Assembly: GCA_038204935.1 (NCBI GenBank)
Contig: JBBRCI010000002.1
Coordinates: 24,888 to 88,887 of the forward strand
Length of the DNA stretch: 64,000 bases
Source: Sphingobacteriales bacterium
GTDB taxonomy: Bacteria > Bacteroidota > Bacteroidia > Sphingobacteriales > Sphingobacteriaceae
Reading direction: 5' to 3'
Shown here: positions 27,436 to 48,282 of the stretch, piece by piece
How positions within the stretch are numbered: position 1 is the stretch's first letter
How the letters are laid out: each line of letters starts with the position of its first letter
Made by a program: the position numbers and the translations under genes
Notes under the pieces: generated by a model
The model's input: the letters and a program-made list of their open reading frames with translations, nothing else
The model's database searches: none
What the model was told of the DNA's origin: nothing

Positions 27436-28704
27436 TTAAGATATTACTTTACTGTTTTCGATAACCGCACCTTTTTTAATCACTATAATTCCATCTTTAA
27501 TGGTATAGCATTCAAAATCACCGTCTTCCATATCGGGGCTACCAATTATTCTAACATCATTACCTATATGGCAATTCTTATCAAGTATTGCGTTTTTAAT
27601 ATAACAACGATCACCGATTCCCATAATCGGGTCACTTGTTACAACAGAGCTTTTTAGTTCATCCAGTGTCTGGTAGTAATCATTACCCATCACGTAAGTA
27701 TTAACAATGGTTGTACCATTGCCAATTCTTGTTCTGATACCAATTACAGAACGCTCAATTCTACTGGCATTAATGATGCAACCATCAGAAATAACAGTTT
27801 TTTCTAAAGTTGTGCCTGATATTTTTGAAGGCGGAAGCATTCTTGCCCTTGAGAAAATTGGTTTTTTATCAAACAGATTAAACTGTGGAATATCATCTGT
27901 AAGACCAATATTTGCATCAAAAAATGAATGAATATTACCAATATCTGTCCAGTAACCTTCATACTGGTAACTCATTACTTTATGGTTTTTCAATGATTGC
28001 GGAATAATTTCTTTGCCAAAATCGGTTGATTCATTTCCTTCTAGTAAACTAAAAAGTACTCCTTTATTGAAAACATAAATTCCCATCGAAGCTAAATAAT
28101 GACGGCCTTGAGATTTCATATTTTCCCCAACATCAGAAACCCAGTCGCTCAGAAGGTCTGCAGCAGGCTTTTCAATAAATGAAGTTATGAAGTGGTTTTT
28201 ATCTGTTTTCATAATGCCGAAACTAGTTGCTTCTTTGGCATTTACGGGTATAGTGGCAATTGAAATTTCTGCCTGACTTTCTTCATGATTTTTAATCATT
28301 TGCTGAAAGTCCATTTGATACAACTGGTCTCCGGATAAGATTAACAAATAATCATATTCATGCTGAGCAAAATGATGCAGACATTGTCGCACAGCATCTG
28401 CCGTACCCTGAAACCATGTTGTGTTATGCGGAGTTTGTTCAGCAGCTAAAATATCTACAAAGGCATCACTAAAAATGCTGAAGTGATACGTGTTCTTGAT
28501 ATGTTTATTAAGTGATGCCGAATTAAACTGAGTAACAACAAAAATTCTTTCAATACCAGCGTTCATACAATTGGAGATAGGTATATCCACTAATCTGTAT
28601 TTCCCTGCAATTGGTACCGCTGGTTTAGAACGGGTTGAAGTTAGAGGGTAAAGACGTGAACCTTGTCCGCCGCCAAGCACTACGCATATTACTTTATAAT
28701 CCAT
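27436..28704 (-). CDS. glgC: Glucose-1-phosphate adenylyltransferase
   Basis: LGGGQGSRLYPLT, RSKPAVPIAGKYRLVDIPISNC, GTADAVRQ, LSGDQLY and YWTDIG. Confidence 0.97.
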   Translation of the reverse strand: MDYKVICVVLGGGQGSRLYPLTSTRSKPAVPIAGKYRLVDIPISNCMNAGIERIFVVTQFNSASLNKHIKNTYHFSIFSDAFVDILAAEQTPHNTTWFQGTADAVRQCLHHFAQHEYDYLLILSGDQLYQMDFQQMIKNHEESQAEISIATIPVNAKEATSFGIMKTDKNHFITSFIEKPAADLLSDWVSDVGENMKSQGRHYLASMGIYVFNKGVLFSLLEGNESTDFGKEIIPQSLKNHKVMSYQYEGYWTDIGNIHSFFDANIGLTDDIPQFNLFDKKPIFSRARMLPPSKISGTTLEKTVISDGCIINASRIERSVIGIRTRIGNGTTIVNTYVMGNDYYQTLDELKSSVVTSDPIMGIGDRCYIKNAILDKNCHIGNDVRIIGSPDMEDGDFECYTIKDGIIVIKKGAVIENSKVIS

Positions 28705-30127
28705 GTTTTAAGGGTATTAAACTTTGATATAACTGTATATATTCTTTTGCTGATTTGTCCCAGGAAAAATTGAGAGTCATCATTTTTTTAATCAAACCTG
28801 ATAGCTTTTCGGGTTCATTAAAAAGTTTAATGGCTCTGCCAATGGCATTCATCGCATCATTTACACTGGCTTTTTCAAATTTGATCCCATAACCATCAGG
28901 ATCTTCAAAATCAATTATGGTATCAGCCAAACCACCGGTATTATTTACAATTGGTAATGTACCATATCTTAAAGAATAAAGCTGATTTAAACCGCAAGGC
29001 TCAACCCGCGAAGGCATTATTATAAAATCTGCACCTGCATAGATTCGATGAGCAAGGTCTTCATCATAACCAATAAATAAGGCGTACTGTTTTTTGAATT
29101 TATTTCTAAGATTTGTCAGTTCTTTTTCAATCGACTTTTCTCCTGAACCCAGAATCAGAAAACTTGCTTTGTTTTTATGTTTTGTTAGCGTTTGGCTAAT
29201 TATTTCCGGAAGTAAGTCGGCCCCTTTCTCACCTACAAGTCGTCCAATAAACACAAATAAGGGAAGTTTTTCATTCAACCCAAATTCTTTGCAAAGCTGA
29301 GATTTACTTAGCTTCTTCCCATGAGAAAAAGTTTCACTGTTAAAATGATTTTCAATTCTCGGATCCGTTTCCGGATTCCAAACTTCTGTATCTATTCCGT
29401 TTATAATTCCCTGACCTTTTTGTGCTTCCATTTGGAAAAGAAGTTCTAAGCCATTAGAATTGTAAGATAATTCTTTTAGATATCCGGGAGAAACTGTAGT
29501 AAATTTCCAGCAGCTTTTAACAGCAGTTGCAAGAGAGTTTATACAGCCGCCCCAATCTAAAAATCCGGCTTTTGAAAGATCAATTTCAGGGAGATAACTT
29601 ACTTTATCCCAGCCAAACCAGCCCTGATATTCACCATTATGGATGGTGCATACCGTGGGAATATTTCGTAATGAATTATATCTCGCAGAATGCGAAACTA
29701 AAAATGGAATTAATCCGGTGTGATGATCATGACAATGAATAATATCGGGCTCAGAATTAGTTTGAACCATCCACTCCAAAAAAGCTATTTGAAAAGCAAT
29801 GAATTGTTCAATTTCATCCGGATAACAATACACTTCCTGTCGGTCAACCAATCCCGGAATTTTAATGAGATATAAAGGAAAACCAAGAATATTGGTTTTT
29901 TCTTTTAAAATGCTAAAATTGAAATCTTTATGACCCAATTTCCCACAACCTTCAAAAACAGTTTCGAATTTATTTTCACGCGTAAATTTTCGATCGTAAA
30001 AAGGCATTACAACCCAGGCATCAACATCAAGAGAATTCATATATTTTGGAAGCGCACCAACTACATCTCCTAAACCTCCAACTTTGGCTACGGGATAGCA
30101 TTCTGCACTTAGGTGAATAACATTCAT
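28694..30127 (-). CDS. glgA: Glycogen synthase
   Basis: KVGGLGDV (KxGG), HCHDHH, TIHNGEYQG, GIINGID and PSRVEPCGLNQ. Start ATG 30127 or 30136. Confidence 0.95.
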   Translation of the reverse strand: MNVIHLSAECYPVAKVGGLGDVVGALPKYMNSLDVDAWVVMPFYDRKFTRENKFETVFEGCGKLGHKDFNFSILKEKTNILGFPLYLIKIPGLVDRQEVYCYPDEIEQFIAFQIAFLEWMVQTNSEPDIIHCHDHHTGLIPFLVSHSARYNSLRNIPTVCTIHNGEYQGWFGWDKVSYLPEIDLSKAGFLDWGGCINSLATAVKSCWKFTTVSPGYLKELSYNSNGLELLFQMEAQKGQGIINGIDTEVWNPETDPRIENHFNSETFSHGKKLSKSQLCKEFGLNEKLPLFVFIGRLVGEKGADLLPEIISQTLTKHKNKASFLILGSGEKSIEKELTNLRNKFKKQYALFIGYDEDLAHRIYAGADFIIMPSRVEPCGLNQLYSLRYGTLPIVNNTGGLADTIIDFEDPDGYGIKFEKASVNDAMNAIGRAIKLFNEPEKLSGLIKKMMTLNFSWDKSAKEYIQLYQSLIPLKHGL

Positions 30128-30221
30128 AAAATACATTTGGTGTCTTAATTTAATAAATGTTACTGAATATCCCAGAAAATATCGTTTCTCTTTACAAAAT
30201 AACTAATTAAAATATTATCGA

Positions 30222-30274
30222 TTTTGCCGGATGAAGAGTAATGCGCTTCCAGCCAGTTTTATCCCTGATAAATT
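30222..30274 (+). repeat. 53-bp degenerate direct copy of the polA 3' end (partner at 30658-30710)
   Basis: TTTTGCCGGATGAAGAGTAATGCGCTTCCAGCCAGTTTTATCCCTGATAAATT versus TTTTGCCGGATGAAAATTAATGCGCTTCCAGCCAGTTTTCTCCCTGACCAATT; 48/53 identical by manual alignment. Confidence 0.92.
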
Positions 30275-30653
30275 CCCTCTGGTTTAAGAGTTCAGCGCTA
30301 GCGCTCTTAAATCTGAATATATAAATCAGGACTCCGTCCGGCACCATGATATAAAAATAATTTATTGAAATGAAATTACATTAGATTATGTCAAGCAGAT
30401 AACGTTTTTGAGATAATGGCAAACTTAGTTTTGAATCAGAAGGGGAATGCCTGCGGCTTGAAGTTATGTGGGTAAAAGGGCCGGACGGAGTCCTGGTTTT
30501 TCCCTTAAGATTTAAGTGATCCTGCGGAACACTTAAACCAGAAGGGAAGGGGAATGCCTGTGGCTTGAAGTTATGTGGTAAAAGGACCGGACGGAGTCCT
30601 GATTTTTCACTAAAGGTTTAAGTGATCCTGCGGAACACTTAAACCAGAAGGGG
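30275..30653. mobile_element. Non-autonomous REP/MITE-like element with inverted double-hairpin ends
   Basis: One inverted unit at 30275-30345 and two tandem ~107-bp units at 30439-30545 and 30546-30653. All share CCGGACGGAGTCCTG and a TTTAAG...CTTAAACCAG stem-loop. No ORF of note. Confidence 0.6.
30439..30653 (+). repeat. Tandem repeat, 2 x ~107 bp
   Basis: Units start GAAGGGGAATGCCTG at 30439 and 30546 and end GTGATCCTGCGGAACACTTAAACCAGAAGGG. Confidence 0.95.
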
Positions 30654-30673
30654 TTGTTTTTGCCGGATGAAAA

Positions 30674-33478
30674 TTAATGCGCTTCCAGCCAGTTTTCTCC
30701 CTGACCAATTTCTACTAAAATTGGTACATCTAACTTCATGGCATTTTTCATTCGGTTTTCAATAATGGCCCTCATTGGTTCTACCTCAGATCTTAATACA
30801 TCAAACACCAATTCATCATGCACCTGCATGGTCATTTTTGATTGCAGTTTCTGATCTTTGATATCCTGATGAATGCGGATCATGGCCACTTTGATCATGT
30901 CTGCCGCAGAACCCTGGATGGGTGCATTGATCGCATTTCTCTCTGCGAAACCTCTTACGGTTGCGTTTGCCGAATTAATATCACGTAAGTATCGTCGTCT
31001 GCCCATTATGGTTTCTACATATCCGTTTTCGCGGGCAAAATTCATGGTGTTATTCATGTAATTTTTAATTCCCGGATATTGGGTAAAATAATTTTCAATA
31101 ATTTCTGCTGCTTCCTTACGTGGAATAGAAAGACTTTGCGAAAGTCCGAAAGCTGATTGACCATAAATAATACCAAAATTTACAGCTTTGGCATTTCTGC
31201 GCTGTGTAGAATCCACTTCTTCTAAAGGAATGCCATATACTTTGGCAGCGGTTGCCGTGTGGATATCCAATCCCTGTGCAAAAGCTTCCAGCATATTCAT
31301 TTCCTGACTAATTTCCGCTATTAAGCGTAATTCTATCTGAGAATAATCTGCAGAAATAATAATATGATTTTCGTCACGCGGAATAAATGCTCTCCGAACT
31401 TCGCGACCACGTTCTGTGCGGATCGGAATATTTTGCAGATTGGGGTTGTTCGAACTCAGTCTTCCAGTTGAGGCTACAGCTTGATTATAAGATGTATGGA
31501 TGCGGCCTGTTTTTTTATTAATTAAAAGCGGTAAAGCATCAACATAAGTAGATTTTAATTTCTGTAACTGACGGAAATCAAGAATATCTTTTACAATGTC
31601 ACTTTTTCCAGCCAAAGCCGTCAACACATCTTCGCCGGTTTGGTACTGACCCGTTTTTGTTTTTTTAGCTTTCGGATCCAGTTCCAATTTATCAAACAGA
31701 ACTTCACCCAACTGTTTCGGTGAAGCGATATTAAATTTCACACCGGCTTTTTCATAAATGATGCGTTCCAGTTCTTGCAAATCAGTTTTTAAATGTTTAG
31801 AAAATTCTGCTAAAGCTTCCTGATCAACTTTTACGCCTTCGCGTTCCATATCAGAAAGAACATAAATTAATGGATTTTCAACTTCATTGGCTAATTTATC
31901 GGCATTTACACTTTGTAATAAAGGCACAAAAACATCTTTTAACTGAAGCGTGATATCAGCATCTTCAGCCGCATATTCTTTAATTAAATCCAGTTCAACA
32001 TCCCGCATGTTTCCCTGTTTCTTACCTTTATTCCCTATCAGAGAAGTTATGGTTACAGGAGTATAACCCAGATAATTTTCGGCTAACAGATCCATATTAT
32101 GGCGTGAATCGGGATCTAAAAGATAGTGCGCCAGCATCGTGTCAAACAGTTCGCCTTTTACTTGGATATCATACCAGTTTAAAACTAATATATCATACTT
32201 CAGATTTTGGCCCGATTTGGCTATTGCCGGATTTTCGAACAATGTTTTAAACTCATTCATTACTGAAAAGCAATCTGGCTGATCTGCTGATAAAGGAACA
32301 TACCAGGCTTCACCTGCTTTAATTGAAAACGACATTCCAACTAATTCGCAATCGTTAGCATCCAAACATGTTGTTTCTGTATCAAAACAAAAACTTCCAT
32401 TTTTTTCAAGAAGAGTAATTAACTCCTGACGTTTCTCTTTGCTATCCGCCACATGATAATGATGTGGAGTTGTGTTTATGTTTTTTAAAGGTTTTGATTC
32501 AATTTCTACCACTTCGGTTTTCTCGTGCACAGTTGTTGAAGAAGCAGAACTTCCAAACAAATCCATTTGTCCGGAAACAGATGAAGTATTGATCTCAGTT
32601 ACGTTAAATTCATCGCCAAAAACCCGTCTTCCAATGGTCCGGAATTCAAGCTCAGCAAACAACTGTTCTAATATTGGGCGGTTGGGTTCATCAATATGAA
32701 GTGAATCTACATCTAAATCTACCGGAGCATCCAATATTATAGTTGCGAGTTTTTTAGAAACTAATGCTTGTTCAGAGAACTGTTCCACATTTTCTTTAAG
32801 CTTCCCTTTGAGCTCATGGCTGTTTGCGATTATATTTTCAATTGATCCGTAAGTCTTTATCAGAGATTTGGCTGTTTTTTCGCCAACGCCGGGTATGCCG
32901 GGAATGTTATCAACCGCATCGCCCCATAATCCTAAAATATCAATAACCTGATCTACACGTTCAACATCCCATTTCTCTAAAATTTCTTTTACACCCTGAA
33001 TTTCCATTCCGTTGCCCATTCTGGCAGGTTTGTAAATGAAAATATTTTCTGAAACCAATTGTCCAAAATCCTTGTCGGGAGTCATGCAATAGACTGTAAA
33101 ACCTTCTTTTTCCGCTTTTTTAGCTAAAGTTCCAATCAAATCATCTGCCTCATATCCATCCGAAAAAATCACAGGGATATTGAAACCTTCTATAAGCCTG
33201 ACAACATATGGTATCGCGATAGCTAAATCTTCGGGCATGGCTTGCCGGTGAGCTTTGTATGCGCTAAAATCTGCATGCCTTTCGGTTGGGGCATCGGTAT
33301 CAAAAACCACAGCCATGTGCGTTGGATTTTCTTTTTTTAATACTTCTAAAAGGGTATTGGTAAATCCCATAACTGCCGAAGTATTTAAACCACCGGAAGT
33401 AAAGCGGGGATTTTTACTTAAAGCAAAATGTGCACGATAGATTAAAGCGAAAGCATCAAGAAGGAAGAGTTTTTTCAT
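30674..33478 (-). CDS. polA: DNA polymerase I
   Basis: 5'-3' exonuclease (LLDAFALIYRAHF, YEADD, GDAVDNIPG), 3'-5' exonuclease (FDTET, NLKYD, YAAED), polymerase motifs DYSQIELR, RRNAKAVNFGIIYG and QVHDEL. Confidence 0.98.
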   Translation of the reverse strand: MKKLFLLDAFALIYRAHFALSKNPRFTSGGLNTSAVMGFTNTLLEVLKKENPTHMAVVFDTDAPTERHADFSAYKAHRQAMPEDLAIAIPYVVRLIEGFNIPVIFSDGYEADDLIGTLAKKAEKEGFTVYCMTPDKDFGQLVSENIFIYKPARMGNGMEIQGVKEILEKWDVERVDQVIDILGLWGDAVDNIPGIPGVGEKTAKSLIKTYGSIENIIANSHELKGKLKENVEQFSEQALVSKKLATIILDAPVDLDVDSLHIDEPNRPILEQLFAELEFRTIGRRVFGDEFNVTEINTSSVSGQMDLFGSSASSTTVHEKTEVVEIESKPLKNINTTPHHYHVADSKEKRQELITLLEKNGSFCFDTETTCLDANDCELVGMSFSIKAGEAWYVPLSADQPDCFSVMNEFKTLFENPAIAKSGQNLKYDILVLNWYDIQVKGELFDTMLAHYLLDPDSRHNMDLLAENYLGYTPVTITSLIGNKGKKQGNMRDVELDLIKEYAAEDADITLQLKDVFVPLLQSVNADKLANEVENPLIYVLSDMEREGVKVDQEALAEFSKHLKTDLQELERIIYEKAGVKFNIASPKQLGEVLFDKLELDPKAKKTKTGQYQTGEDVLTALAGKSDIVKDILDFRQLQKLKSTYVDALPLLINKKTGRIHTSYNQAVASTGRLSSNNPNLQNIPIRTERGREVRRAFIPRDENHIIISADYSQIELRLIAEISQEMNMLEAFAQGLDIHTATAAKVYGIPLEEVDSTQRRNAKAVNFGIIYGQSAFGLSQSLSIPRKEAAEIIENYFTQYPGIKNYMNNTMNFARENGYVETIMGRRRYLRDINSANATVRGFAERNAINAPIQGSAADMIKVAMIRIHQDIKDQKLQSKMTMQVHDELVFDVLRSEVEPMRAIIENRMKNAMKLDVPILVEIGQGENWLEAH

Positions 33479-46472: not shown

Positions 46473-47303
46473 ATGCAAAAGTCATCAACATTAACCTGGA
46501 TAATTGTTTCGCTTGTTGGCTTTATTCTATTTTTAGCCTTTTTTTATATTCTGATAAATTACAGCAAGCAAATCACTATTAGTACACCGGTATACTTTTT
46601 TCTGGTAGTAATTATAGCTCTTATTTCCACGGCTTTTTTATCTGGCGCAATGAAATCGGTTGCTCGATATAATGCAACGTCTAAATCTAGAACCCTTTAT
46701 TTATCAGGACCTGCAGTTATTTTTTTTATTATCATTTATTTGGGATATAAATACCGGCCAGAAACAGTTAAATCTAATTCCCCTCTCAGTTTGTCAGTAC
46801 TATTTAAAGGGCCTGAAGGTTCGCAGGACTTAGTAATTGAGGGACAGGTGAACGTTCGAATTGCGGAATTTAGTGGTACCAAAAAAATTGATAATGAAAG
46901 TTCTGCCCTTTTTACTGGCATCAATCCGGAATATAAAGGCCATAAAATTGATCTTTCTGCAAAAGTTCCAGGCTATAATCTGGTAAATAATAAAGATTTT
47001 TCTTTAAGTGATTCCGGAAGTTTTACAAATCTCACCATCATCCTGGTAAAGAAATTAGATTCTATTTCGGTTAGTGGCAACGTTATTAAACTGCCAGAAA
47101 GAATAGGTGTTTCGGGAGCATTAATTCACTTTCAAGGCGTTTCTAAAGCATATCTTACAGATAGTATTGGGAACTTTTCAGCTGTTCTGCCATTTAAATC
47201 AGGCGATGAAACCCGCATCATTGTGAGTAAAGGCAACCGGGAAGTTTATAATAGTTTAAGAACCATAAGCGAAAAAGATTTTTTAAGTATTCCGGCTAAT
47301 TGA
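46473..47303 (+). CDS. Hypothetical membrane protein with C-terminal beta-sandwich (carboxypeptidase-regulatory-like) domain
   Basis: Three N-terminal TM helices, then beta-rich domains; VSGNV...GVSGA...TDSIGNF pattern. Confidence 0.7.
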   Translation: MQKSSTLTWIIVSLVGFILFLAFFYILINYSKQITISTPVYFFLVVIIALISTAFLSGAMKSVARYNATSKSRTLYLSGPAVIFFIIIYLGYKYRPETVKSNSPLSLSVLFKGPEGSQDLVIEGQVNVRIAEFSGTKKIDNESSALFTGINPEYKGHKIDLSAKVPGYNLVNNKDFSLSDSGSFTNLTIILVKKLDSISVSGNVIKLPERIGVSGALIHFQGVSKAYLTDSIGNFSAVLPFKSGDETRIIVSKGNREVYNSLRTISEKDFLSIPAN

Positions 47304-47310
47304 TATTGAA

Positions 47311-48282
47311 ATGTTTAAATATTATTTGCTGTTTCTTTTTTGTTTTCTGACTTTAAGAAGTAATAGTCAGACGACAACTTATAAATTCCGCGTCAGGTAT
47401 GCAAATTATACTGCATTAGCGAATACAAAGTTCCTGATTAACGGGCAACAGTTAGTAACCGATCCACAGGGAATTATCAGTATAAGTATTCCTAACCAAA
47501 TTACGTTCGCAAATATTGGGAGCGTAAACCCTCAGCTATATAAAATAGATTATCCTATGGAAGGTCGTGCTAATCTTCCTAAAGATAATTCTGTATTCGC
47601 TGATATTTTTGTATCCAAACCCGGACCGGATCTTGGCAAAATGGTAATCAGAGAAATAAGCCGGATGAATGCCAATTCAGATGCTTTGCTTGTTAAAAAG
47701 CTGCAGGAAGAAACGCGACGTGGGTACGATTCAATTGTTCAGTTGCTAAGCAGTAAAAATGAAATCGATGAAAAAATGCTGGCCAAAGGAAGAATGGAAT
47801 TTTACCCATTAATTTCCAGTGCTTTAAATCAATATTTAAATGAAGCTCGTGATGCAAATGATGCTTTTATTACGATCAATAAATCTTTAGATAATGGTGG
47901 CGCCTTTAGACAATTTGCGAATTCAATATTAAGTTACAATGAAATTTACGAATTGCTCAATGGCAACAAAAATGCTTATGAACAGGCCATAAACACATAT
48001 TGGAATAGCAAAGAACTGTCATTGAAATTTTCTAATCTGATGGATTTTACTCTTGAAGATATACATAAACCTTATTTTTTGGAGATAAATTATACTTTCC
48101 TCGACCGGATTTATCAGTACAATGCAGAACAAAATAAGTCCAGAAAAAAAGAGCTTGGCAAAACATTAAGCGCAGATATTTCGCAACATTCAGCATCCCT
48201 TTCCCGCCGTTTAAATATTTTGGGAGAGCGGATTGCAAGTTTTAACACACTCCTCAATAATAATGCAACAGTTGGTAACTAA
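47311..48282 (+). CDS. Secreted hypothetical protein (beta domain plus helical bundle)
   Basis: Signal-peptide-like N-terminus, VTDPQGII beta-sandwich-like segment, amphipathic helical C-terminal half. Confidence 0.7.
   Translation: MFKYYLLFLFCFLTLRSNSQTTTYKFRVRYANYTALANTKFLINGQQLVTDPQGIISISIPNQITFANIGSVNPQLYKIDYPMEGRANLPKDNSVFADIFVSKPGPDLGKMVIREISRMNANSDALLVKKLQEETRRGYDSIVQLLSSKNEIDEKMLAKGRMEFYPLISSALNQYLNEARDANDAFITINKSLDNGGAFRQFANSILSYNEIYELLNGNKNAYEQAINTYWNSKELSLKFSNLMDFTLEDIHKPYFLEINYTFLDRIYQYNAEQNKSRKKELGKTLSADISQHSASLSRRLNILGERIASFNTLLNNNATVGN

What the first reader, a model, noticed from the sequence alone, without database searches (positions are those of the whole stretch)
30222..30710. 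Hairpin-ended element bracketed by a 53-bp duplication of the polA 3' end
Seen: 30222-30274 is a 48/53 direct copy of 30658-30710, which is the last ~11 codons of polA, its stop and ~16 nt beyond. In the copy the stop is lost (TAC) and an earlier TAA appears. The ~380 bp between the copies begin CCCTCTGGTTTAAG and end CTTAAACCAGAAGGGG, so the ends are inverted. Established: integrative elements that target gene 3' ends duplicate that end (attL/attR), whereas ordinary IS target duplications are much shorter. Inference: either a collapsed island integrated at polA, which would be an unusual att site, or a REP/HUH-type element that copied flanking host DNA. No recombinase is left in the window.
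Basis: partly seen in the sequence, partly recalled or inferred. Interest (0 to 1): 0.72.

Follow-up and report, generated by a model that had tools for sequence, protein, structure and literature searches.

The report
Dead REPtron with 53-bp polA duplication
A broken copy of a hairpin-ended transposase cassette (a REPtron) has landed in the last codons of the DNA polymerase I gene and is flanked by two copies of 53 bases of its landing site, a footprint that this kind of element is not supposed to leave but that recurs around related cassettes in other Bacteroidota-type genomes.

Summary
30222-30274 and 30658-30710 are a 48/53 direct repeat. The right copy is the true polA end and the left copy is a decayed pseudo-copy.

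The 383 bp between them is not a collapsed island. It is an internally deleted REPtron: one left REP double hairpin, the leader and first ~11 codons of a RAYT gene, a ~490-bp deletion, then the RAYT 3' end with two tandem right REP units. It is collinear with an intact RAYT REPtron on another contig of the same genome.

The closest species has a precise empty site with one copy of the 53-mer. So this is a lineage-specific 436-bp insertion plus target duplication.

No integrase is involved: the repeat's inner borders lie 0 and 4 nt from the REP termini.

REPIN-like doublets of the family lack such repeats. However, seven other RAYT-bearing REPtrons in other genomes, among them Pedobacter and Mucilaginibacter, show the same anatomy with 38-665-bp direct repeats.

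The literature I read says REPtrons do not move as units and that IS200/IS605 relatives make no such duplications. The mechanism is inferred, not shown. I favour RAYT- and replication-linked re-copying of the target.

Earlier notes of this scan report the same footprint on other DNA.

The parts
30222..30274 (-). Left (distal) copy of the 53-bp duplication. It is a decayed pseudo-copy of the polA 3' end: stop changed to TAC, a new in-frame TAA, and 5 substitutions.
   Evidence: At all 5 sites where the copies differ, the other copy agrees with the empty site of G056.
30275..30344 (+). Left REP unit (double hairpin). It forms the outer left terminus of the REPtron and directly abuts the left repeat copy.
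   Evidence: nhmmer REP model E = 5e-20. It is 94% identical to the left units of the intact C14 REPtron. Hairpin covariation is shown.
30345..30420 (+). RAYT leader and 5' remnant. The start-codon equivalent is at 30388, followed by a premature TAA at 30400. The remnant runs to about codon 11.
   Evidence: 79% identity to G000:C14:11638-11735, the upstream region and start of the intact RAYT.
30421..30446 (+). Junction of the internal deletion. About 490 bp of RAYT (codons ~12-175) are missing. The junction includes the tail (TTGAATCAGAAGGGG) of a truncated first right unit.
   Evidence: (family D4).
30447..30546 (+). Right unit 1: the RAYT 3'-end remnant (~32 nt) followed by a right REP double hairpin (30479-30546).
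   Evidence: Sub-blocks are 74-100% identical to the C14 right units; 30471-30501 is 94% and 30507-30543 is 37/37.
30547..30653 (+). Right unit 2, a tandem copy (93% identical) of the RAYT 3' remnant plus right REP. Its end is the outer right terminus of the REPtron.
30654..30657 (.). TTGT spacer between the REP terminus and the right repeat copy. It is either filler or the original flank.
   Evidence: It is not present at the empty site of G056.
30658..30710 (-). Right (proximal) copy of the 53-bp duplication. It is the functional polA 3' end: 11 codons, stop at 30674-30676, and 16 nt beyond.
30674..33478 (-). polA (DNA polymerase I), kept intact by the duplication.
   Evidence: NCBIfam NF004397 1128 bits, cut-off 720.
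28694..30136 (-). glgA, the downstream neighbour. Its 85-nt upstream region (30137-30221) is the ancestral intergenic DNA.
   Evidence: NCBIfam TIGR02095 469 bits. Synteny with 56-112-nt gaps in relatives.

Best explanation
The stretch is a dead REPtron, that is, a REP-associated tyrosine transposase (RAYT, HUH/Y1) gene flanked by its own inverted REP double hairpins. It entered the G000 lineage at the 3' end of polA as one unit.

Shown:
- The insertion is 436 bp: a 383-bp element plus a second copy of 53 bp of the target.
- The polA-proximal copy keeps polA intact. The displaced copy has decayed.
- The RAYT gene later lost about 490 bp internally, so the element is now immobile.

Inferred: the 53-bp duplication arose in the same RAYT-dependent, replication-linked event as the insertion. 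I see two possible routes.
- A nick at or next to a REP terminus primes DNA synthesis that switches template onto the REPtron and back, re-copying a variable length of target.
- An excised circle that carried 53 nt of flank, because a pseudo-cleavage site inside polA was used, rejoined at the exact left REP terminus and re-entered the site.

Either route explains two features. The repeat length is not fixed (38-665 bp at related REPtrons). The inner repeat borders sit at the REP termini.
For: Identity of the element:
- It is collinear with the intact REPtron at G000:C14:11504-12512.
- That RAYT scores 95.3 bits against NCBIfam NF047646 (cut-off 80), with NHVH and YLHTNP motifs.
- The REP units match one nhmmer model.
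- They fold into two hairpins with 95.3% of cells paired and 37 double-sided changes; 0 of 500 shuffles reach this.

Insertion:
- G056, with 93% polA DNA identity, has glgA, the intergenic DNA, a single 53-mer and polA contiguous.
- 31 further genus loci with glgA downstream have a single copy, and most have 49-112-nt gaps.

Self origin:
- Both copies share two G000-specific bases against G056.
- All 5 differences between the copies are changes in the left copy.

Link to the element:
- The left REP terminus abuts the left copy with 0 nt between. The right terminus is 4 nt from the right copy.
- The same anatomy holds at L105 (275 bp, 100%), L113 (95 bp, 97%, a complete chromosome), L115 (79 bp), L108 (38-39 bp), L125 (665 bp, 94%), L131 (93 bp, a different REP family, repeat unique in its genome) and L176 (159 bp).
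- A second local case is G000:C78, where a 106-nt copy of the ruvC 5' end abuts a left REP terminus.
Against: - No step of the mechanism was observed.
- Only this locus has a verified empty site. Relatives of the other seven cases were too distant to tell.
- Most RAYT loci (about 90 of 109) and all 18 other REP clusters tested in G000, G021 and G001 have no long flanking repeat. The duplication is therefore either not obligatory or is quickly lost.
- These regions are repeat-rich, and my control was not clean.
- Insertion and duplication cannot be separated in time with one outgroup. Gene conversion between the copies could mimic a recent self origin.
- G023 has a similar polA 3' duplication around an unrelated small gene with no REP and no RAYT in the genome. 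Some of the effect may therefore belong to the site, or to selection for an intact polA.
Confidence: 0.55

Rival explanations
1. Sequential events. The REPtron first inserted 16 nt downstream of the polA stop without any duplication, as IS200/IS605 relatives do. Later a local tandem duplication of flank plus REPtron arose, as seen in REPIN clusters. One REPtron copy was then lost by precise excision, or the copies were homogenised by gene conversion. The result is 53-mer, REPtron, 53-mer.
For: - In Pseudomonas, tandem REPIN clusters include flanking sequence (PMC3116915).
- This family makes tandem arrays of RAYT 3' end plus REP: window 30447-30653, C14, C57.
- An earlier scan note (e1-4558619) read an 86-bp case in this way.
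Against: - It needs three rare steps that end with exact REP-terminus junctions, repeated in 8 loci of different genera.
- No locus examined shows the predicted intermediate: flank, REPtron, flank, REPtron.
Confidence: 0.2
2. A RAYT-independent accident. The hairpin-rich REPtron DNA was copied in by fork stalling and template switching, or by homology-facilitated illegitimate recombination after DNA uptake. Re-priming 53 nt upstream produced the repeat. Only products that kept polA intact survived.
For: - Repeat lengths vary.
- Spacers of 0-66 nt lie at the junctions.
- G023 has a polA-end duplication around a cargo without REP or RAYT.
Against: - The inner borders coincide with REP termini in several genera.
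- Some duplicated segments are non-coding (L113, L108), so selection for an intact gene cannot be the general cause.
- The REPIN doublets have the same hairpins but lack long repeats.
Confidence: 0.15
3. attL/attR of an integrase-borne island that integrated at the polA 3' end and later collapsed.
For: - Gene 3'-end duplications are typical of such elements.
- The same genome has a perfect 48-nt tRNA-half duplication elsewhere (G000:C9).
- G023 also has a duplicated polA end.
Against: - There is no integrase gene or remnant.
- The whole interior is accounted for by a REPtron whose termini reach the repeats.
- The repeat boundaries differ between G000 and G023.
- No island is present at this site in 36 genus loci.
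- Both copies carry host-lineage bases.
Confidence: 0.03
4. Assembly artefact in a draft genome of 173 contigs.
For: The genome is a draft, and reads could not be inspected.
Against: - The copies differ at 5 of 53 positions, and the interior is unique in its arrangement.
- The same architecture occurs in a complete chromosome (L113) and in isolate genomes (L108, L115).
Confidence: 0.02

Closest known systems
REPtron of the Bacteroidetes RAYT subclass 2.6 (Quentin et al. 2018, PMC6006769; Bertels Group 5)
   Same: - The intact copy encodes a ~180-aa RAYT with NH[LIV]H, WQ and YIH[QN]NP-like motifs.
- The gene is flanked by inverted, atypical REP structures without a GTAG tag.
- Copies of the REPs occur elsewhere in the genome.
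- The host group fits.
   Different: - The copy here is dead and sits at a lineage-specific site with a verified empty allele.
- It is bracketed by a 53-bp target duplication.
[quoted passage not shown]
IS200/IS605 family (IS608, ISDra2)
   Same: - An HUH/Y1 enzyme.
- Subterminal hairpins at both ends.
- Single-strand chemistry is expected.
   Different: - Those elements insert without target duplication (PMC2817692).
- The NCBIfam IS200 model scores 28 bits against a cut-off of 55 for the intact RAYT.
REPIN tandem clusters of Pseudomonas fluorescens SBW25 (Bertels and Rainey 2011, PMC3116915)
   Same: Flanking sequence is duplicated together with REP elements. The tandem right units here carry the RAYT 3' end in the same way.
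   Different: Those are head-to-tail arrays of flank plus REPIN. Here one element lies between two copies of the flank, which is an insertion-type footprint.
Integration of adeno-associated virus by its HUH Rep protein (Henckaerts et al. 2009)
   Same: [quoted passage not shown] This makes it a mechanistic analogue for variable-length target re-copying.
   Different: - It is a eukaryotic virus with a superfamily-3 helicase Rep and a different fold context.
- It is an analogy only.
- The mechanistic details are from my memory, because the paper is not held in the library.
Integrative elements that carry a replacement gene end (attL/attR)
   Same: The target gene end is duplicated and the gene stays intact.
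   Different: There is no integrase, the repeat is of the host's own sequence, and the borders lie at REP termini.

Membership tests
REPtron (RAYT gene plus cognate REPs) | A RAYT (HUH/Y1) gene | tested here: met
   The intact copy at G000:C14:11703-12251 scores 95.3 bits against NF047646 (cut-off 80) and matches Pfam Y1_Tnp. The window holds only its 5' and 3' remnants: 79% identity over the 98-nt leader/5' block and 74-94% over the 3' end.
REPtron (RAYT gene plus cognate REPs) | REPs flank the gene in inverted orientation | tested here: met
   One minus-orientation unit lies upstream and two plus-orientation units downstream in the window. The same layout is seen in C14 and in 35 of 109 RAYT loci.
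REPtron (RAYT gene plus cognate REPs) | REPs are palindromic or hairpin-forming and conserved as structure | tested here: met
   Two helices, 95.3% of cells paired, 37 cells changed on both sides, 0 of 500 shuffles as high; slid controls give 19-60% paired.
REPtron (RAYT gene plus cognate REPs) | Cognate REPs are dispersed elsewhere in the genome | tested here: met
   Copies lie on contigs C14, C57 (two arrays), C78 and C51. The copy number is low: 5-6 loci.
Canonical E. coli-type REP | A conserved GT[AG]G tetranucleotide at the REP foot | tested here: not met
   The 41-unit alignment shows no conserved GTAG. This agrees with the 'atypical' REPs of subclass 2.6 (PMC6006769).
IS200/IS605 insertion sequence | A TnpA of the IS200 type | tested here: not met
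   NF033573 scores 28.1 bits, cut-off 55.
IS200/IS605 insertion sequence | Insertion without target duplication | tested here: not met
   A 53-bp duplication is present against the empty site of G056.
Integrase-type integrative element (attL/attR) | A tyrosine or serine recombinase in or next to the element, or in intact relatives at the same site | tested here: not met
   The interior is fully explained by the REPtron. None of 36 genus loci has an island at the polA end.
DDE-type MITE | A short target duplication of fixed length | tested here: not met
   Repeat lengths are 38-665 bp across related elements.
Mobile unit (transposes as a whole) | Filled and empty alleles with exact borders | tested here: met
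   G056 has a precise empty site. Movement itself was not observed.

The most novel reading that the evidence does not exclude
RAYT REPtrons of Bacteroidota, and by the scan's earlier notes perhaps of other phyla, are occasionally mobile as whole units. They integrate by a route unknown for Y1 HUH transposases: it re-copies a variable stretch of target (tens to hundreds of bp) on both sides of the element. As a result they can land inside the ends of essential genes such as polA without destroying them.
Probability: 0.4. Interest if true: 0.8.

Novelty: new variant of a known kind. Interest (0 to 1): 0.63.

Why it matters
How REP sequences and their RAYT genes spread is still unsettled. The papers I read state that there is no evidence for mobility of the RAYT gene or of the REPtron as a unit, and that relatives of this enzyme family leave no target duplication.

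This locus supplies a filled and empty allele pair with exact borders. It also has a long duplication of the host's own sequence. The same anatomy recurs at seven other RAYT loci in other genomes, two of them with different REP hairpins.

If the duplication is part of the insertion reaction, it points to a replication-coupled integration route for Y1 HUH enzymes. Isolates that carry intact copies, such as Pedobacter and Mucilaginibacter, would allow a direct experimental test. It would also explain how such cassettes can sit in the ends of essential genes.

Tried and rejected
- Rfam scan of 29000-32000: only chance-level miRNA hits. No tRNA or tmRNA in the window.
- Diversity-generating retroelement (template and variable repeat): rejected, because the 5 differences are not adenine-specific and polA is not a plausible target.
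- REP-mediated unequal crossing-over: rejected, because no REP lies outside the two repeat copies.
- A regular target duplication of the REP family: rejected for the small elements. All 18 other REP clusters tested have no long flanking repeat.
- Empty site for the intact C14 REPtron: uninformative. G056 has an ABC-transporter gene there instead.
- Empty sites for L113, L105, L108, L115 and L131: relatives are too distant or the regions are rearranged.
- The L113 repeat is itself a copy of another dispersed repeat family. The two flanking copies are 97% alike against at most 85% to the other copies within that genome.
- Exact-protein look-up of PolA and a metagenome scan for the 53-mer: nothing found.
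- GC skew gives no usable replication direction.
- My control count of repeats that do not bracket RAYT was confounded by extra REPtron copies and REP arrays.
Full report
**1. The observation**

The window has two copies of a 53-nt sequence, at 30222-30274 and 30658-30710, that match at 48 of 53 positions.
- The 53-mer occurs nowhere else in the 3.03-Mb assembly.
- Against shuffled probes the match scores z = 31 and z = 24.

The right copy is the real end of polA. The 934-aa ORF runs 30674-33478 on the minus strand and scores 1128 bits against NCBIfam DNA polymerase I. The copy covers the last 11 codons, the stop at 30674-30676 and 16 nt beyond it.

In the left copy the stop has become TAC and a GAA has become TAA.

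glgA and glgC follow on the same strand.

**2. What lies between the copies**

The 383 bp at 30275-30657 consist of these pieces:
- a left unit (30275-30344);
- a middle piece;
- two tandem units of 107 nt (30447-30546 and 30547-30653) that are 93% identical.

The same units occur on four other contigs of the genome.

On contig C14 two left units and three right units flank an intact 183-aa gene.
- It scores 95.3 bits against NCBIfam NF047646, REP-associated tyrosine transposase (cut-off 80).
- It matches Pfam Y1_Tnp.
- It falls below the IS200 cut-off.

The window element is collinear with that REPtron:
- the left REP;
- the leader and first ~11 codons of the RAYT gene (79% identity, with a premature stop);
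- a deletion of ~490 bp;
- the RAYT 3' end with the right REPs.

So the interior is a dead, internally deleted REPtron. A remnant of the recombinase gene is still present.

The REP unit folds into two hairpins. I tested this on 41 units from the window and from other genomes.
- 95.3% of cells pair.
- 37 cells keep pairing through changes on both sides.
- No shuffle out of 500 reaches these values.
- Slid controls give 19-60% pairing.

The RAYT has NHVH, WQ and YLHTNP motifs and is about 180 aa long. Its REPs lack a GTAG tag. This fits the Bacteroidetes subclass 2.6 described by Quentin et al. (PMC6006769).

**3. It is a true insertion**

Fifty-three of the 54 other species genomes of the genus gave a match to the query region.
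- In the 33 fetched loci where glgA follows polA, the gap is mostly 49-112 nt.
- Longer gaps occur in G000 and five other species.
- Each locus holds one copy of the polA end, except G000 and G023.

The closest species, G056 (93% polA DNA identity), has glgA, the intergenic DNA, one 53-mer and polA contiguous. The two flank alignments overlap by exactly the 53-mer.

G000 therefore gained 436 bp: the 383-bp element plus a second 53-mer.

Comparison of the two copies with G056 shows the following.
- At all five sites where the copies differ, the polA-proximal copy has the G056 base.
- Both copies share two bases that differ from G056.
- The duplicated DNA is thus the lineage's own sequence, and the distal copy has since decayed.
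- Gene conversion between the copies cannot be excluded.

**4. Not an att site**

The left REP terminus touches the left copy, with 0 nt between them. The right terminus is 4 nt (TTGT) from the right copy.
- Nothing remains that could be a collapsed island.
- No integrase is present.
- No island occupies this site in any of the 36 genus loci examined.

**5. Is the long repeat a property of the element?**

For the small REP elements the answer is no. All 18 other REP clusters tested in G000, G021 and G001, many of them REPIN-like inverted doublets, have no long flanking repeat.

For RAYT-bearing units the picture differs. A scan of species genomes with the RAYT protein gave 80 loci, including Pedobacter, Mucilaginibacter, Hufsiella, Saprospiraceae, Flavipsychrobacter and Cyclobacteriaceae. 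My REP model finds the same REPs in the same layout at 35 of 109 RAYT loci.

Seven loci show the window's anatomy: direct repeat, 0-66 nt, left REP, RAYT, right REP, 0-5 nt, direct repeat.

| Locus | Repeat length | Identity | Note |
|---|---|---|---|
| L105 | 275 bp | 100% | holds a gene 3' end |
| L113 | 95 bp | 97% | complete chromosome |
| L115 | 79 bp | 95% | |
| L108 | 38-39 bp | 95% | |
| L125 | 665 bp | 94% | |
| L131 | 93 bp | 99% | different REP family; repeat unique in its genome |
| L176 | 159 bp | 99% | REP hairpins different in sequence |

A second local case lies on G000 contig C78. A 106-nt copy of the ruvC 5' end directly abuts a left REP terminus, 2.4 kb from its source. It sits inside a 4.1-kb region that relatives lack.

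I could not verify empty sites for the other genomes. My control for background repeats was confounded.

**6. Mechanism**

The papers read make three relevant statements.
- IS200/IS605 elements make no such duplications (PMC2817692).
- There is no evidence of tnpAREP mobility (PMC8266576).

Any model has to account for four features of the data:
- a variable repeat length;
- inner borders at REP termini;
- the host's own sequence in both copies;
- a precise empty allele.

I favour a single RAYT- and replication-linked event, by one of two routes.
- Nick-primed synthesis switches template onto the REPtron and back. [quoted passage not shown]
- An excised circle included 53 nt of flank because a pseudo-site in polA was cut, and then re-entered the site.

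These steps are inferred, not shown.

The main rival is a sequence of ordinary steps: insertion, then tandem duplication of flank plus element as in REPIN clusters (PMC3116915), then loss of one element copy. No such intermediate was seen.

A RAYT-independent template switch is also possible. Some support comes from G023, which has a ~55-nt polA-end duplication around an unrelated small gene. That insert has no REP, and no RAYT was found in that genome.

**7. Novelty and verdict**

The element belongs to a known kind, the RAYT REPtron of the Bacteroidetes type. What I could not find described in the papers searched is the following:
- a documented filled and empty allele pair for a whole REPtron;
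- the recurrent long, variable target duplication.

Earlier notes of this scan report the same footprint on other DNA: 45 bp, 38 bp, 22 bp, 21 bp in uvrB, and 86 bp. One of them reads it as later local duplication. These notes are unchecked leads that agree with the pattern.

However, the 5 mismatches between the copies, together with the same anatomy in a complete chromosome, make an artefact unlikely.

Noticed in passing
L006:441-495 and L006:1178-1232 (G023:C168): Another species of the genus has its own ~55-nt duplication of the polA 3' end, running from 48 nt before the stop to ~10 nt after it. It brackets a 684-bp insert that holds a 176-aa signal-peptide-like ORF and a terminator. The insert has no REP, and no RAYT was found in that genome. 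The pseudo-copy has also acquired a stop and a 1-nt deletion.
   Followed up: partly
L077:1013-1116 and L077:3582-3687 (G000:C78): A 106-nt direct repeat (90% identical) of the ruvC 5' end plus its -7 promoter box. The ectopic copy abuts a left REP terminus that carries a RAYT 5' remnant. A sulfatase-family gene (PF00884) lies between the copies. Relatives have only ~260 bp between ruvC and its neighbour here.
   Followed up: partly
G000:C9:46653-46700 and 47293-47340 (outside the window): A perfect 48-nt duplication that looks like the 3' half of a tRNA gene, bracketing 592 bp. It resembles a classic integrase att remnant.
   Followed up: no
L070:1781-2203 and L070:3427-3665 (G000:C57): Three right-type REP units, each with a ~70-nt RAYT 3' remnant at 136-nt period, and three left-type units flank a ~1-kb gene (manganese-catalase-like by eye, not tested). 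In G056 the three pieces lie on three different contigs.
   Followed up: partly
L101-L125 versus L039-L067: The intact RAYT of G000 is up to 81% identical in protein to RAYTs of Sphingobacteriaceae genomes (Pedobacter, Mucilaginibacter) but at most 73% to those of its own genus. The REP sequence itself is recognisable across these families. This suggests horizontal transfer of the whole REPtron.
   Followed up: no
L114:882-1603 and L114:2406-3127 (Pedobacter xixiisoli): Two REPtron copies 97% identical over 723 nt lie 802 nt apart in direct orientation, a composite-like arrangement.
   Followed up: no
L008 (G006), polA-glgA gap of 743 nt: The same intergenic site in another species holds a different repeat, three tandem GGATCAAGTCCGGAATGACAAAA-like units and further structured DNA. 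The polA-glgA gap seems to be a recurrent landing place.
   Followed up: no
L038:1284-2369 versus G056:C75:6233-8126: Where G000 has its intact RAYT REPtron, the sister species has a ~1.75-kb ABC-transporter-like gene. This is a replacement rather than a simple insertion.
   Followed up: partly
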